From: a virus
Taxonomy: Duplodnaviria; Caudoviricetes
Strand: one strand, 5' to 3'
IMG/VR virus record: IMGVR_UViG_3300020577_007690
Span: 10,782 to 74,781 of that record
Length of the DNA stretch: 64,000 nt
Part shown: one piece after another, positions 2,279-23,362 of the stretch
Position numbering within the stretch: the first letter of the stretch is position 1
How the letters are laid out: each line of letters opens with the position of its first letter
Program-made: the position numbers and the translations under genes
The notes under the pieces: generated by a model
Told to the model about the DNA's origin: nothing
Seen by the model: the letters and a program-made list of their open reading frames with translations, nothing else
The model's database searches: none

Positions 2279-3207
2279 GACGCCGCAGGCTCCGGCGCCT
2301 TGTCCTTCTTCGTGGGGAGCTTCTCCAGCTTGTGCTTGATGCTCATGTACTGGGCACGCTCGGCGGGGTCCTTGATGGGCATGATCTGCGAGGACAGCGC
2401 ACCATCGACCAGCGCAATGAGCTTGTCGCGCTCAATGACCGTCATGCGCTCCCAGGTGACGCGCGGGGCCTTCTCGACCTCGTCTTCGGGCGTCTCGCCG
2501 CGGAGGGCCGCCTTGCGGCCCTTGTCGTCCTCTGCCGACAGGTACGTCTCGATGACGGCGGCCTGCGCCTCGTGGTCGGGGAAGCGCTTGCACAGCAGGA
2601 TGGCGTCGGGGAGGATGAGCACCTCCTTGGCGACAGCCTCTTGCACCGCGGGCGACGAGGCCAGGATGCCGTTCGGCGACACGGCGCGGCGCAGCTCGCC
2701 AGGGTTGCGGAAGAAGTTGGGGAACTTCTTCAGCACGTCCTCCTCGGTGACGCCGAGGTTGAGCATGTCGTACGCCGTCGTGATCCGCGTCATGGCATCG
2801 TTGCCCTTGCGGACCTCATTCTCGGAGATGTACTTGTCGCGCAGCTCCGCGTCGCTCATGCGCTGCTCCATGAGCACGCCGATGGTGATCGGGGGCTCAT
2901 TGCGCTCCGCGCGTCGCTTGTTGACCTCGCGGCAGGCGATGACGCGCCGATTGCCGAACGCCGTCTCCTTCAGCCACTCCCCGTTGGCCTGGCGAAGGCG
3001 AACGGTGATGAGCTGAAGCACACCCTGCTTCTCGATGTCATTGATCAGCTCGATCATCTGCGGATCTTCGAGCCGGTAGCGCATGCTGCGCAGCGGGGTG
3101 TGCAGCGTGTGACCGAGATCAGCCACGGTGAGGAGATCCTCGGGCTTGAACCGCGCGAAGTCTCCTCGACCAGCCGCGCCTGCCTTCTTCAGTTGCTCCG
3201 AACCCAT
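2275..3207 (-). CDS. ParB/RepB/Spo0J-family protein
   Basis: ELINDIEKQGVLQLITVR...GNRRVIAC...ISENEVR ParB signature followed by an HTH-like region; GGAGG SD. Confidence 0.8.
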   Translation of the reverse strand: MGSEQLKKAGAAGRGDFARFKPEDLLTVADLGHTLHTPLRSMRYRLEDPQMIELINDIEKQGVLQLITVRLRQANGEWLKETAFGNRRVIACREVNKRRAERNEPPITIGVLMEQRMSDAELRDKYISENEVRKGNDAMTRITTAYDMLNLGVTEEDVLKKFPNFFRNPGELRRAVSPNGILASSPAVQEAVAKEVLILPDAILLCKRFPDHEAQAAVIETYLSAEDDKGRKAALRGETPEDEVEKAPRVTWERMTVIERDKLIALVDGALSSQIMPIKDPAERAQYMSIKHKLEKLPTKKDKAPEPAAS

Positions 3208-3557: not shown

Positions 3558-3605
3558 AGTCTAACAACGAGCGCCCAGGTTTCTAACACCGGACGTTCGT
3601 TCAGG
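3558..3605 (-). promoter_or_regulatory. CTGAAC-box promoter 1
   Basis: Box 3589-3605 (sense CCTGAACGAACGTCCGG), TTAGAA-N17-TAGACT; 25 nt from box to -10. Confidence 0.75.
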
Positions 3606-10870: not shown

Positions 10871-11011
10871 GAGGCGCCCAGCTCTTGTGGGCTGGGTGCT
10901 GCTGTCAGACGGAAGCCGGATCTAGAGGCATGGCGAGCCCCGGCCGAAGGTCGCAAGACCCCATCGCGTCAATCTGACATCAGCACCGAACCCACAAGGC
11001 AGGAGGATCGA

Positions 11012-13252: not shown

Positions 13253-13452
13253 ACTGGAAGACGACTTGTGCCGACAGACGCCAGGGCCGACGCCGTGTAG
13301 TTCGCGGCAGGTAGCAGCGGATGGGCGGCGCAGGCTCTTCCAGTTCTTTGTAGGGCGCTCGTCAGGTCTTCGTTCTGTAGTAGCCTACCTGCCTTGTGGG
13401 CGCAGAACGCGGGCATAAACAGACGAGCGTCCTCTAAAGAACTGGAGGAAGA
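13253..13452 (+). promoter_or_regulatory. Structured 5' leader able to sequester the SD of the 13453 operon
   Basis: 26-bp stem 13338-13363/13422-13447 covers GGAG; alternative 9-bp pairing 13253-13261/13336-13344. Confidence 0.5.
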
Positions 13453-19491: not shown

Positions 19492-20736
19492 CTAGGTCGG
19501 TGGCTTGATCTCCGTCAGGCAGATCTCCAGGCTCCCGTCGTAGCCGCCCGACTTGATGCGCTGGATGAGATCGTTGAGCCCACCGTAAGCAGCCCTACGT
19601 TTCTGGTCCACTCCGTCACACGCCGCGGGGCCGCGCGCCCAGTTCTGCGGCAGATCACAAGCGTCGAAGCCGCGACGCCAGCCAGGGCGCCCCTTGGTCG
19701 AGAAGTCGGTGACGGTCAGGCCAGGATCGTCACAGACCATCGCCATGGAGCCGAAGCACTGAAGGTTGGGCACGAGGATGATGAAGCTACCTGCGCAATC
19801 GTCTTCCGACATCCAGCGGTTGCGGAAGGGGTACTCCGATCGCGGGTCGTCGAGCACGAAGACGTTGGGCTTGTAGTTGCCCTTCGTGATGGTTGGTCCG
19901 TCCCAGCACGTCTGATAGTCGAGGCCGTATGGCTCGATGTAGACGAACGGGACGTTGAGCTGCGACAGGTAGAAGTAGACCGAGCGCATGATCGCGAGCG
20001 GGCTCACCGTGTCGGGGAGCTGCCGCAGTCGCGCGCGGAACATCTCCTCCGACTCGCCATCGCGCATCGAAGTGCCGCGCTCAATGCCCAGCTCTTCGAG
20101 CATGGCGCCTGCGCCTCCGCTCGCGTCTACCAGGTTGGCGCAGGTGATGGTGTGGTCCCAGAAGACGGGGTCGGTGATCAGCTCGTCGACCGTGTCGATC
20201 TCACCAGGGATCGTCTCGCCTGCTGCGGTGACGCGCGGCCCCTGAACGTTGTACTCCCATCCTGTCGCCTCGGCGCGGCACATCGCTGTGTGCGGTCCGA
20301 CGTCGCCGATGCCGAACGCAAGGTCAGTCGTCAGAATGAACCGGCGACCACCCTTCGACGTCTTGACCTTCGTGCCTGCCTTCACGACGCCAGCGCCAGC
20401 GCCAGCGTTCGCACGAGAAAACGCTACCTCCGTGCAGGTAGCGAATGCGCCGCGCTTTGCCCACGAGATGAACGTGCTCTCCGCGTTGTTGACCTGCGCC
20501 TGGCTGGCGCGCTCACCCACTGCCGCCATCGCCTTGAACAGCTCGTAGCCTTCTCCGCTCTCTCGGATCGGCGTGATGTAGTTGTCAGGGAAGATGCGAT
20601 CGAAGAGCCGCAGGAAGAACGCCTGGTCGAGCACCTGAAATGGGCTCGGACCGATGTTCCCTGCGAGCAGGAAGACGAGCAGGTCGTCTGGATTCTCTGG
20701 CGGAGGAGGCGGGGAGTCGACATAGGTGGTCGGCAT
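19492..20736 (-). CDS. Baseplate wedge protein (J-like segment plus gpI-like region)
   Basis: VKAGTKVKTSKGGRRFILTTD...GWEYNV...IDTV baseplate-J-like segment; position. Confidence 0.65.
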   Translation of the reverse strand: MPTTYVDSPPPPPENPDDLLVFLLAGNIGPSPFQVLDQAFFLRLFDRIFPDNYITPIRESGEGYELFKAMAAVGERASQAQVNNAESTFISWAKRGAFATCTEVAFSRANAGAGAGVVKAGTKVKTSKGGRRFILTTDLAFGIGDVGPHTAMCRAEATGWEYNVQGPRVTAAGETIPGEIDTVDELITDPVFWDHTITCANLVDASGGAGAMLEELGIERGTSMRDGESEEMFRARLRQLPDTVSPLAIMRSVYFYLSQLNVPFVYIEPYGLDYQTCWDGPTITKGNYKPNVFVLDDPRSEYPFRNRWMSEDDCAGSFIILVPNLQCFGSMAMVCDDPGLTVTDFSTKGRPGWRRGFDACDLPQNWARGPAACDGVDQKRRAAYGGLNDLIQRIKSGGYDGSLEICLTEIKPPT

Positions 20737-20753
20737 GTCTTCATGCTACAACA

Positions 20754-20800
20754 CCTGAACGAACGTCAGGTGTTGGAATCCTGCGGGAGATGACTATGAT
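20754..20800 (+). promoter_or_regulatory. CTGAAC-box promoter 5 (drives the ncRNA candidate)
   Basis: Box CCTGAACGAACGTCAGG within palindrome 20749-20775; TTGGAA-N16-TATGAT; 24 nt. Confidence 0.8.
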
Positions 20801-20806
20801 GTTCTC

Positions 20807-21396
20807 TGTCCTCGGCACTCGTGAAGAGGTCTCGAAAAGCGGACGCTGGTTACGCCCTGGTCGACACAGAGCCGAAGCTGTGAACTTCGCAGCAGGCAAG
20901 GCTTAAAGCCGGATGGCCGCAGTACCCCACTGAAGACAAGCCCTGAACGGTGGGTCAGATGACCGTGGGCCACGGGGTCACTGTAGCGCGCGTCGTCGAA
21001 AGACGATCTTCTCCCAGTGACAGCCGAGGACACCCTTTATACCTTGAGCAGCGCGCCGAAGACGCGAGAGAAGTGATGCCTCTTGATGGACTGCGCCGAA
21101 AGGCGAGTGTGAGTCGCTGCTCCGGGGACCTTTGCTTGATGAGGTGATGTCTTCGCACGCCTGACAAGCGATAGGGGTGTCGTTAAGCCCTGTAGAAGTG
21201 ATCACCATCGCCTCATCGAGCTTTTTTCTTATGGCGCGCGTAACGCGAATGAACAGCTCCGGCCACAAGCTGGGTGTGCAGAGTGAAACCTGCCGCGCGC
21301 CACTTCTTGAGAACTTCTCGCAACCACCGACCCCTAAGTAGCCAGCCCGACTCGGCGTAAATCGAGGTAGGCGCACGGCGTTGCGGGAAGTTCTCT
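20807..21396 (+). ncRNA. Candidate large structured ncRNA (~590 nt)
   Basis: No credible ORF; 5' end pairs with 21023-21032; 16-bp stems 21134-21149/21206-21221 and 21309-21324/21380-21395 with U-G wobbles valid only on the plus strand; GAAA tetraloops at 20998 and 21098. Confidence 0.65.
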
Positions 21397-22599
21397 TTAT
21401 CCGAAGCTGTCGGCGTTGACGCTGAGCGTGAGCGGGCGATCAGGCTGCACGCTGTTCGCAGTCACGTTGGCGAGCGAGCTGCGGAACACCTGAAGCGGCT
21501 TGGCGACAACGTCTCCGATGGGGGAAGCGATCTCGTTGCCGGTGAAGCTCACACCGCGCACACGACGGAGCGCGTCTCGAAGCGTGGTCAGAGAGAGCGT
21601 CTGCCCGCGGCGGAGCAGGTTGATCTCGTTCACTATGGCGACGCGCGCTCTGTAGGCTGTGTCGTTGATGTCGGCGCCTGCGGTGAACGTCAGGTTCAAG
21701 TTGACGGGCATCACGATGACGCTCGCCAGCTCGACGAACACAGGTCCGCCACCCGATCGCGTGTCAGCAAGCGCGTCCTGCACGGTCTGCGCGAGCACAC
21801 GCGACTGCGACTCGTAGACGGGCGGTACGGTTGTCTGGTCGATCAGCAGCTCCGTGAACCTGTCGGTGATGCCGAGCAAGACCACCTTGTTCGGGAGCCC
21901 CAGGTTGTTCAGCACCTCCGTTGCCACGGCGGTCTTGACGCCAGGCACACGCAGAGCACGCGCTTCGATGGCAGCCAGCGTCCCGCGGCGGGCTGCATCG
22001 AAGAAGCGCTGTGCGCTCTGCCTGTAGTCGGGGTCTGAAGCCTCGTCGTCACCGACCGTCGCTGCACGAGGGTTGGTGACGCGCAGATCAGTTGGTGCGT
22101 TCGGGATCTGGGTGATCAGGTTGGTGATGGTGTTGGGGAGCGCGTACTGGTCGCGGCCTGCGAGCGCAGAGCGAACGCGGACGGTCAGCGGCCCGCGAGA
22201 ATTCTTGGGGAACGTCGCGTCGTGCGTGGTGAGCCACTGCACACCGGCCTCGTCCGAGATGATCGTGTCGTGTTCGATGGGGAACGCAGCCAGCGTGAGC
22301 GCGTCTGTCTCGAAATCGACGGAGCAGAGCGAGACGGCGGCGCGCTTCCTCGCCAGGGCGATGCTGTCGAGCAGCTTGTAGTCGAGCTTGTCGCCTCGCG
22401 CCGAGGCGTTGTAGTAGGCGCTCTGGAACGCGATCTGCTGCCCCATGAGCGCGTCTCCGACAGCCGCCATTCCTTGTAGGAGTGCCCAAGCGTCTGTGCC
22501 TGGCGTCTCAACAGCCAGCCGCGTCAGCTTCGGTTGATCTTCGAGGAGGGCTACCTTCGCGACGCGAAGGAAATCCGCTTTGGTTGGAAAGTCCGCCAT
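21397..22599 (-). CDS. Baseplate J-like protein
   Basis: ARGDKLD...LARKRAAVS...GDDEASDPDYRQ...RRGTLAAIEARALRVPGV. Confidence 0.85.
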   Translation of the reverse strand: MADFPTKADFLRVAKVALLEDQPKLTRLAVETPGTDAWALLQGMAAVGDALMGQQIAFQSAYYNASARGDKLDYKLLDSIALARKRAAVSLCSVDFETDALTLAAFPIEHDTIISDEAGVQWLTTHDATFPKNSRGPLTVRVRSALAGRDQYALPNTITNLITQIPNAPTDLRVTNPRAATVGDDEASDPDYRQSAQRFFDAARRGTLAAIEARALRVPGVKTAVATEVLNNLGLPNKVVLLGITDRFTELLIDQTTVPPVYESQSRVLAQTVQDALADTRSGGGPVFVELASVIVMPVNLNLTFTAGADINDTAYRARVAIVNEINLLRRGQTLSLTTLRDALRRVRGVSFTGNEIASPIGDVVAKPLQVFRSSLANVTANSVQPDRPLTLSVNADSFG

Positions 22600-22612
22600 G
22601 AGTGAATTCTAC

Positions 22613-22659
22613 ACTGAACGAACGTCAGGCGTTGGAATTGCGATGGGAGCACTTATGCT
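22613..22659 (+). promoter_or_regulatory. CTGAAC-box promoter 6
   Basis: Box ACTGAACGAACGTCAGG; TTGGAA-N16-TATGCT; 24 nt. Confidence 0.8.
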
Positions 22660-22693
22660 ACTGTGGAACAACCAACGTGTATCAGGAGAGAAC

Positions 22694-23362
22694 ATGAGGA
22701 CAGCAGCATTTGTAGGAATCCTTCTATTGGTAGTTGGGTGTGGCTATTACCCAACCAAACCGCCATCGCAGACGCCGCCTGTCGAGGAGCCGCCCCAGGA
22801 CATGGGGCTACCGTACACGTCCGCTCCGCCGCACGTCGGCGAGAGGAGCGTAGCGGGCGGCCTCACGAGCGGCACGCGCCTGAAGGTGCAGCGCATCGGT
22901 GGTCAGGATGGTAGCACGCAGGCGCTCAACCTCTTCTGGGACAGCGTGCTCTCCATGGAATGCACGTTCCTCTCTGCCGGAGAGCCTGACGGCGTGACGC
23001 GCTGCCTGCCGGTGGGCAGCAACGAGCAGATCGCAGTCCCCGACTTCTACACCGACGACCGCTGCGACGCGCCCGTCTTCGTCGTGCCGTCGTGTGACAA
23101 GCCAGTGCAGTACCTGACGGCGATCCGGCCCGTGTTCGGGCTCCCGAACCGTCCAGCGTACTGCCGCGGTGCGATCTCCGTGTGGCGCCTGCGCGAGGTG
23201 CTGCAAGTCGATCTGCCGCAGAGCTTCTACTACTGGGATGGCGTGGAGTGTCGCGCAGTGCGCTACAACGCTTCGCTGTACATGCGCTTCCTGGTGCCTG
23301 ACGGAGCGGCTGAGCCGCTGGAGAACTTCGTCAAGGGAACGAAGATCGTCATCGACAACTAA
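22694..23362 (+). CDS. Cargo (moron) lipoprotein, myxobacterial-type Cys-containing domain
   Basis: LLVVG-C lipobox; SGTRLK...WDS...ECTF...DGVTRCLP motif; antisense to baseplate genes; AGGAG SD. Confidence 0.75.
   Translation: MRTAAFVGILLLVVGCGYYPTKPPSQTPPVEEPPQDMGLPYTSAPPHVGERSVAGGLTSGTRLKVQRIGGQDGSTQALNLFWDSVLSMECTFLSAGEPDGVTRCLPVGSNEQIAVPDFYTDDRCDAPVFVVPSCDKPVQYLTAIRPVFGLPNRPAYCRGAISVWRLREVLQVDLPQSFYYWDGVECRAVRYNASLYMRFLVPDGAAEPLENFVKGTKIVIDN

What the first reader, a model, noticed from the sequence alone, without database searches (positions are those of the whole stretch)
20807..21396. Candidate ~590-nt ornate non-coding RNA inserted antisense inside the baseplate module
Seen: a ~660-nt gap between two baseplate genes holds no ORF with phage-like codon use, and box promoter 5 points into it. 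The predicted +1 (about 20807) is exactly where a 10-bp helix begins (TGTCCTCGGC 20807-20816 with GCCGAGGACA 21023-21032), closing a ~225-nt domain. Further helices are 20977-20983/21015-21021, 21046-21053/21115-21122, 21134-21149/21206-21221 (16 bp, followed by T6) and 21309-21324/21380-21395 (16 bp, ending 1 nt before the baseplate J stop). The mismatches in the long helices are U-G wobbles on the plus strand and would be A-C on the minus strand, so the fold is strand-specific. GAAA tetraloop hairpins lie at 20993-21006 and 21094-21105. Established: phages carry large structured RNAs of unknown function such as GOLLD and ROOL. Inference: this is a multi-domain ncRNA, possibly a new class from a myxobacterial phage, and co-regulated with the box regulon.
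Basis: partly seen in the sequence, partly recalled or inferred. Interest (0 to 1): 0.88.

Follow-up and report, generated by a model that had tools for sequence, protein, structure and literature searches.

The report
Swappable non-coding RNA cassette in phage
The 660-base gap between two baseplate genes of this uncultured phage holds a self-contained, protein-less cassette with its own promoter and hairpin stops. It most likely makes a folded RNA of unknown job, is kept in a reshuffled form by one related phage, and is missing from another.

Summary
The new evidence is comparative.

- **Derived insertion.** In five distant relatives, baseplate J abuts the next gene (8 bases apart at most).
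- **Three alleles in the window's clade.** All are swapped between the same two breakpoints, the J stop and the middle of the operator box. They are this 626-nt cassette (E1), an 857-nt mosaic homologue (E2, locus L008), and an unrelated 40-nt filler (L005). L005 is almost identical to L008 elsewhere.
- **Conservation between E1 and E2.** Neutral sites differ by about 30%. Yet the promoter, the first 30 or so transcribed bases, a hairpin in domain 1 and an 80-nt block are 94-100% identical.
- **Structure between E1 and E2.** Domain 2 keeps its pairs through compensatory changes. The two 16-bp hairpins are replaced by unrelated hairpins at the same positions. No ORF is shared.
- **Limits.** Nothing matches Rfam, tRNA or tmRNA models, or any searched collection. 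Whole-length folding energy is not exceptional, only two variants exist, and expression could not be tested.

Verdict: probably a real, dispensable, moron-like non-coding RNA cassette. It is not shown to be a GOLLD- or ROOL-like ornate RNA. The scan noted this same stretch once more in an overlapping window, and found no look-alike on other DNA.

The parts
20749..20775 (.). Operator box, a 10-bp palindrome with a 7-nt spacer. It is shared by the plus-strand cassette promoter and the minus-strand start of the 414-aa baseplate gene. The left cassette breakpoint falls after 20769, inside the box.
   Evidence: Breakpoint.
20770..21395 (+). The cassette as an exchange unit (626 nt, allele E1). It is replaced by 40 unrelated nt in L005 and L016, and by an 857-nt mosaic homologue in L008, L010, L011 and L017-L021.
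20773..20800 (+). Sigma-70-type promoter, TTGGAA-16-TATGAT. The predicted +1 lies near 20807. It is 97-100% identical in E2.
20807..21032 (+). Domain 1, a multi-branch domain closed by a perfect 10-bp helix (20807-16 with 21023-32). Both helix arms and the first 30 or so nt are identical in E2. The inner arms are replaced by different hairpins.
20919..20971 (+). Conserved core of domain 1. Its 48-nt centre (20923-20970) is 95.8% identical to E2, against about 70% expected at neutral sites. It is a nested 4+5-bp hairpin with a 10-nt loop. It also holds a box-like word at 20943-58.
21042..21126 (+). Domain 2, a branched fold closed by the 8-bp helix 21046-53 with 21115-22. It is 79% identical to E2. 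Three pairs show compensatory changes, five show G-U-compatible changes, and none is broken in the consensus fold.
21134..21228 (+). Domain 3, a 16-bp hairpin with a 56-nt structured insert, then T6. It is a candidate terminator or RNase III site. In E2 an unrelated hairpin plus a U-rich tract sits at the same position.
   Evidence: z = -4.9 on plus, -2.2 on minus.
21229..21308 (+). An 80-nt block that is 100% identical in E2. It holds domain 4, a 71-nt three-way junction closed by the 9-bp helix 21232-40 with 21294-302.
   Evidence: (I13). Neutral divergence of 0.30-0.34.
21309..21399 (+). Domain 5, a 16-bp hairpin ending 1 nt before the J stop, followed by TTTAT. In E2 the stem is replaced by an unrelated G+C-rich stem. 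A 13-nt word inside the loop (21332-21344) is identical, and the inner hairpin is kept with one compensatory change.
   Evidence: The compensatory change was read by hand from the sequences.

Best explanation
A dispensable, moron-like cassette whose cargo is RNA rather than protein.

**Transcription (inferred).** An operator-controlled promoter of the same class as this phage's protein-gene box promoters (20773-20800) starts plus-strand transcription near 20807. This runs antisense to the baseplate operon.

**Products (inferred).** The transcript folds into hairpin-closed modules. The 16-bp hairpin plus U6 at 21134-21228 ends most transcripts at about 420 nt, or serves as a processing site. 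Read-through continues through the invariant three-way junction to the second long hairpin at 21395. That hairpin keeps antisense transcription out of gene J.

**Working parts (inferred).** These would be the blocks held nearly constant between alleles:
- the 5' 30 or so nt,
- the 20919-20971 hairpin,
- the 80-nt block at 21229-21308,
- the loop word at 21332-44.

The variable stems act only as scaffolds. The RNA most likely acts in trans on a host or phage factor as an accessory function, either counter-defence (a decoy) or regulation.

**What is shown and what is not.**
- Shown: the cassette boundaries, the absence of coding, the conservation pattern and the pair-preserving changes.
- Inferred: transcription, transcript ends and any function.
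For: 1. **Insertion.** In five relatives whose J protein is 44-54% identical, J is followed within 8 nt or less by the next gene.
2. **Cassette behaviour.** Three alleles are exchanged between the same two breakpoints. L005 (empty) and L008 (E2) differ at only 2.8% of fourfold sites in J.
3. **Non-coding.** No codon signature is present. No ORF is shared by E1 and E2 apart from the trivially identical block. Pfam and PHROGs give no hits. The 132-aa ORF has no relatives.
4. **Selective conservation.** Fourfold sites in the flanking genes differ by 0.30-0.34. The promoter and 5' end show about 3 changes in 100 nt, 20923-20970 is 95.8% identical, and 21229-21308 is identical at 80 of 80 positions.
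5. **Structure kept.** The domain 2 consensus fold has 27 pairs with 3 compensatory changes, 5 one-sided changes and 0 broken. With the structure predicted from E1 alone, the counts are 20 same, 4 one-sided, 3 compensatory and 1 broken, permutation P about 0.01-0.025. Domains 3 and 5 are replaced by unrelated sequences that again form long hairpins followed by U-rich tracts.
6. **Strand.** The promoter is on plus. All hairpin-plus-U tracts read on plus. Four of the five one-sided changes in domain 2 and the wobbles in the long stems are G-U on plus and would be A-C on minus.
7. **Composition.** The cassette is 0.57 GC against about 0.64 in the flanks.
Against: - No expression data could be obtained.
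- Whole-length folding energy lies within the range of coding controls. For E2 the minus strand scores better, z = -2.97 against -1.96.
- Only two distinct sequences exist, so covariation is thin.
- The mosaic pattern shows recombination. The 80 of 80 identity could therefore be a recent exchange rather than selection.
- A near-identical phage lacks the cassette, so it is not needed for growth.
- Hairpin-plus-U tracts inside the element argue against one 590-nt functional molecule.
- Long hairpins with inserts of about 50 nt also occur in other intergenic regions of this phage.
- No copy was found elsewhere.
Confidence: 0.55

Rival explanations
1. A regulatory spacer without a trans-acting product. 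The cassette is a promoter followed by a stack of terminator or insulator hairpins. What matters is the act of convergent early transcription and its containment before gene J, together with the shared operator that also controls the 414-aa gene. The RNA itself is incidental.
For: - The box is shared back-to-back with the start of the minus-strand gene.
- Two domains in E1 and four in E2 end in a hairpin plus a U-rich tract on plus.
- Similar long hairpins sit in other intergenic regions.
- The promoter and operator are among the most conserved parts.
Against: - It does not explain the near-invariant blocks well inside the transcript (20923-20970 and 21229-21308).
- It does not explain pair-preserving changes in domain 2, which is not a terminator.
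- The L005 allele loses the plus promoter altogether. Distant relatives have no gap at all at this position.
Confidence: 0.2
2. A DNA-level or selfish mosaic. The stretch would be a recombination hot spot filled with exchangeable junk or mobile fragments. The identical blocks reflect recent lateral exchange, or protein-binding DNA such as a second operator, rather than RNA function.
For: - Module boundaries are sharp and both flanking stems have been swapped.
- Near-identical phages differ by presence or absence.
- A box-like word lies 188 bp from the box.
- Thermodynamic strand preference is ambiguous.
Against: - There are no terminal inverted repeats and no convincing target duplication. The 7-nt end repeat is absent in E2.
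- No transposase, integrase or reverse transcriptase was found among 64 phage proteins.
- The box-like word has the wrong spacing, and its key T is changed in E2.
- The wobble asymmetry and compensatory changes are RNA-type signals.
Confidence: 0.15
3. A small protein gene with atypical codon use, either the minus-strand 132-aa ORF at 20978-21376 or the 36-aa plus-strand ORF starting at 21232.
For: - Open frames exist.
- A gene caller called a 114-aa product in this stretch in L014.
- The first 26 codons of the 21232 ORF are identical in E2.
Against: - No coding signature is present.
- The 132-aa frame is not kept in E2 and has no homologues.
- The 21232 ORF has no Shine-Dalgarno site, its start codon lies in a 9-bp helix, its C-terminus differs between alleles, and it shows no synonymous change where about 30% is expected.
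Confidence: 0.04
4. A diverged member of a catalogued RNA family, such as GOLLD, ROOL, a self-cleaving ribozyme, tmRNA or a tRNA-like RNA.
For: - A weak Hammerhead_3 match in E2 (E = 3.3).
- A T-loop-like hairpin in the E2-only 3' module.
Against: - Nothing reaches the gathering score in the whole window, and only noise appears at E of 10 or below.
- The hammerhead match lacks the GAAA core strand.
- ARAGORN finds nothing in the window or in L008.
Confidence: 0.02

Closest known systems
Phage morons: promoter-cargo-terminator cassettes inserted between adjacent late genes, as described for HK97 and HK022-type phages (from my own knowledge)
   Same: It is inserted between two genes that abut in relatives. 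It has its own promoter and hairpin plus U-tract stops. Its G+C is lower than the flanks. It is present or absent among close relatives and is dispensable.
   Different: The cargo has no ORF. It points antisense to the late operon. Its promoter carries the phage's own operator box. The cargo is itself a mosaic of exchangeable modules.
GOLLD and ROOL large ornate RNAs of phages and prophages (PMC12286853)
   Same: It is several hundred nt long, multi-domain, non-coding and phage-borne, with no known function. The E2 allele has a T-loop-like module, and GOLLD often lies near tRNAs (the latter from my own knowledge).
   Different: No covariance-model match was found. It is known from one narrow phage clade with two variants. 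Internal terminator-like hairpins suggest several shorter units. No evidence of higher-order assembly exists.
Orphan intergenic and antisense ncRNAs mapped in phage transcriptomes, for example by ONT-cappable-seq of Pseudomonas phages (PMC10914365)
   Same: It is a stand-alone promoter-to-terminator unit in a gene-free gap, and no RNA family matches it.
   Different: Those RNAs were seen as transcripts. This one is predicted from sequence and comparison only.
T7-type intergenic RNase III processing hairpins (from my own knowledge)
   Same: The stems are long and imperfect, with internal inserts, and lie between functional units. Similar hairpins sit just before ribosome-binding sites at 10884-10998 and 13336-13449 in this phage.
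   Different: Here the hairpins bracket non-coding modules. They are followed by U-tracts on the strand antisense to the operon. Cleavage was not tested.

Membership tests
GOLLD / ROOL / other Rfam large RNAs, introns, ribozymes | Covariance-model score at or above the family's gathering threshold | tested here: not met
   One search found no match in the whole window. Searches gave only noise (E of 1.2 or more) for E1 and E2.
Hammerhead ribozyme (type III) | A three-stem junction with the CUGANGA and GAAA core strands | tested here: not met
   One search gave 16.1 bits against a gathering score of 48.5. CUGAAGA is present, but the GAAA strand is missing and the stem topology differs.
tRNA / tmRNA | A cloverleaf or tmRNA architecture detected by ARAGORN or Rfam | tested here: not met
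   Searches found no genes. No tRNA or tmRNA row appears. A 24-nt word of the E2 T-loop-like module has no exact match in species genomes.
Phage moron | Inserted between genes that are adjacent in related phages | tested here: met
   Searches show gaps of 8 nt or less in five relatives. Searches give the cassette breakpoints.
Phage moron | Own promoter | tested here: inconclusive
   A consensus match lies at 20773-20800. It belongs to a recurring box/-35/-10 class and is conserved in E2. No transcript data exist.
Phage moron | Own terminator | tested here: inconclusive
   A 16-bp hairpin plus T6 lies at 21134-21228, with a matching arrangement in E2. The terminator scan did not call it because the loop exceeds 8 nt.
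Phage moron | Protein-coding cargo | tested here: not met
Structured functional ncRNA (generic) | Base pairs maintained by compensatory change across homologues | tested here: inconclusive
   Domain 2 has 3 compensatory and 5 compatible changes with 0-1 broken, P about 0.01-0.025. Only two distinct sequences exist.
Structured functional ncRNA (generic) | A discrete transcript on the predicted strand | not testable with these tools

The most novel reading that the evidence does not exclude
A new class of modular phage RNA. It would be an early-expressed array of 600-850 nt built from exchangeable hairpin-closed modules around a few invariant cores (the domain 1 hairpin, the 71-nt three-way junction and the loop word at 21332-44). 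Related phages would shuffle it as counter-defence or host-takeover cargo. One example is a decoy for an RNA-sensing or RNA-guided host system, with the E2 allele adding a T-loop-bearing module.
Probability: 0.2. Interest if true: 0.8.

Novelty: new member of a known kind. Interest (0 to 1): 0.5.

Why it matters
Accessory loci that differ between near-identical phages are where counter-defence and host-manipulation functions tend to sit, and almost all known ones encode proteins. This would be an RNA-only cassette with the same population behaviour: three alleles at one site, invariant cores and swappable scaffolds. If it is transcribed, the natural with-and-without pairs of phages offer a ready-made experiment on what a phage accessory RNA does. 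If it is not transcribed, it is an ordinary variable regulatory spacer.

Tried and rejected
**Known RNA families.** The Rfam gathering and permissive scans of E1 and E2 found nothing. ARAGORN found nothing.

**Other copies of the DNA.**
- Own record: only the box recurs.
- GenBank phages, searched with E1 and with E2: none.
- Exact 20-32-nt words in viral contigs: none.
- Exact words in metagenome contigs: none.
- Exact words in species genomes: none.
- Earlier notes of this scan: only this same stretch.

**Relatives by protein.**
- Relatives of J or the 414-aa protein in viral, metagenome or genome contigs: none.

**Coding.** The 132-aa ORF was searched as a protein to catch mis-called ORFs in other copies, and none was found.

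**Paralogues.** A covariance model of domain 2 against the window and seven loci found no paralogues. A 14-nt identity between domain 4 and 'Element B' at 38214-27 does not extend and was judged chance.

**Mobile-element features.** The 7-nt direct repeat at the element's two ends (20801-07 and 21390-96) is absent in E2 and was judged chance.

**Partner proteins.** No reverse transcriptase, Ro/TROVE, RtcB or integrase was found among 64 phage proteins.

**Expression.** It could not be tested.

Full report
**Setting.** The window is part of a 74.8-kb IMG/VR virus record. The finding lies between two minus-strand genes. One is 21397-22599, a Baseplate_J protein (Pfam E = 4.8e-8). The other is 19492-20736, a 414-aa protein with a faint baseplate-wedge PHROG match. 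The gap is 20737-21396.

**Observation.**
- The two 16-bp stems carry three T-G wobbles that would be C-A on the other strand. T6 follows the first stem.
- No frame in the gap has this phage's codon bias. All frames score below 0, against +0.3 to +0.76 for 15 real genes.
- A promoter-like site, TTGGAA-16-TATGAT, lies at 20773-20800. It belongs to a recurring arrangement of box, -35 and -10. The clearest other copies (3604, 10344, 22614) run into a Shine-Dalgarno site, with an ATG visible at 3604 and 10344. This copy has neither.

**Is the fold more than chance?**
- The whole-length z-score is -2.62 on plus and -1.15 on minus.
- Eight 590-nt coding controls from the same phage, folded on both strands (16 folds), average -0.6 with sd 1.3 and reach -2.9. 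Total folding energy therefore does not settle anything.
- The long hairpins are individually strong, at z = -4.9 and -4.6.

**Comparative evidence: the insertion.** Baseplate J has relatives in public assemblies.
- In five loci with 44-54% protein identity (L006, L007, L022, L023/L024, L025/L026), J is followed within 8 nt or less by the next gene. The gap is therefore a derived insertion.
- Within the window's own clade there are three alleles:
  1. The window, with two 100%-identical JGI contigs, L013 and L014.
  2. L005 and L016, where window positions 20770-21395 are replaced by 40 unrelated nt.
  3. L008 and seven other ENA or Logan contigs, all identical to each other. Their gap is 891 nt and holds a homologous but mosaic version, E2.
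- Breakpoints are the same in every comparison: the J stop codon on one side and the centre of the operator box on the other.
- L005 and L008 differ at only 2.8% of fourfold-degenerate sites in J. The window differs from both at 28-34%.
- The site therefore behaves as an exchangeable, dispensable cassette.

**Pattern between E1 and E2, against a neutral divergence of about 0.30:**
- Promoter, operator and the first 30 or so transcribed nt: about 3 changes in 100 nt.
- 20923-20970: 95.8% identical.
- Both arms of the 10-bp closing helix: identical.
- 21229-21308: identical at 80 of 80 positions. This block contains a 71-nt three-way junction closed by a 9-bp helix.
- A 13-nt loop word at 21332-44: identical.
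- The inner arms of domain 1 are replaced by other hairpins.
- Both 16-bp hairpins are replaced by unrelated sequences. These again form long stems at the same positions and are again followed by U-rich tracts.
- E2 has two extra modules. One is a 105-nt module ending in a hairpin plus U5. The other is a 3' module with a T-loop-like hairpin.
- Domain 2 is 79% identical. Its consensus fold has 27 pairs, with 3 compensatory changes, 5 one-sided changes and none broken. Using the structure predicted from E1 alone, the counts are 20 same, 4 one-sided, 3 compensatory and 1 broken. A permutation of the observed substitutions gives P about 0.01-0.025.
- Four of the five one-sided changes create or remove G-U pairs on the plus strand.
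- No ORF is shared by the two alleles except where the DNA is identical.

**Interpretation.** The best reading is a moron-like cassette with RNA cargo.
- It would be transcribed on the plus strand from an operator-controlled promoter.
- It folds into modules whose stems are free to vary and whose cores are held constant.
- The hairpin-plus-U tracts probably act as terminators or processing sites. They give a product of about 420 nt and a read-through form of about 590 nt, and they keep antisense transcription out of J.
- Function is unknown. The presence-or-absence polymorphism among near-identical phages, and the neighbouring box-driven plus-strand cargo gene at 22580-23362, fit an accessory role. 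I judge a counter-defence or regulatory RNA most likely, but that is inference.

**Limits.**
- Transcription is untested.
- Only two distinct sequences exist.
- The mosaic itself shows recombination, so the identical block may be recent exchange.
- For E2 the minus strand folds at least as well overall.
- Long hairpins with inserts of about 50 nt are a general feature of this phage's intergenic regions.
- No copy or paralogue was found anywhere else.
- No RNA-partner protein is encoded nearby.

**Comparison with known families.**
- It is not GOLLD, ROOL, a known ribozyme, an intron, a tRNA or a tmRNA.
- It behaves like a phage moron in every tested respect except that the cargo is not a protein.
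- It resembles the orphan ncRNA units seen in phage transcriptomes (PMC10914365), and the orphan phage RNA genes this scan has noted in other genomes (unchecked here).
- It is a new, family-less example of a known kind. It is moderately interesting because the natural alleles make its function testable.

Noticed in passing
window 22580-23362 (+), box at 22614: This is a second plus-strand cargo inside the minus-strand baseplate module. It is a real protein gene (codon score +0.31, GC3 0.75) behind a box promoter, with a weak DUF7481 match below the cut-off. Homologues of 222 and 207 aa sit at the same place in L005, L008 and L006, but not in L007.
   Followed up: partly
window 10884-10998 and 13336-13449: These are very long imperfect hairpins (33- and 28-nt arms with inserts of about 50-58 nt). 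They end at or overlap the Shine-Dalgarno sites of plus-strand genes and look like T7-style RNase III processing sites.
   Followed up: partly
L008:2607-2700:- (3' module of allele E2) and L008 about 3111-3205 (105-nt module): The E2 allele carries two modules that the window lacks. One ends in a hairpin plus U5. The other has a T-loop-like hairpin stacked next to an 8-bp UUCG-capped stem. ARAGORN and Rfam do not call it a tRNA or tmRNA.
   Followed up: partly
window 20943-20958: A box-like word (CTGAAC, 5 nt, GTCAG) lies inside the conserved hairpin of domain 1, 188 bp from the true box. Its spacing is one base longer than in the box, and its T is changed to C in E2.
   Followed up: partly
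window 21229-21233 and 21332-21337: UAUGG and CCUAAG are the two strands of the classical 11-nt GAAA-tetraloop receptor. Both fall inside blocks that are invariant between E1 and E2. They are not placed to form one internal loop in the predicted fold, so this may be coincidence.
   Followed up: no
The similarity does not extend beyond it and is probably chance in G+C-rich DNA.
   Followed up: partly
L008 7207-7824: A free-standing HNH / His-Me endonuclease gene (weak Pfam match) sits among the tail and baseplate genes of the L008 phage. A NUMOD4-motif protein also occurs somewhere in the window.
   Followed up: no
L022 226-1566: A distant relative has a 1.3-kb stretch with no called gene just upstream of its Phage_base_V gene. 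This may be another cargo site.
   Followed up: no
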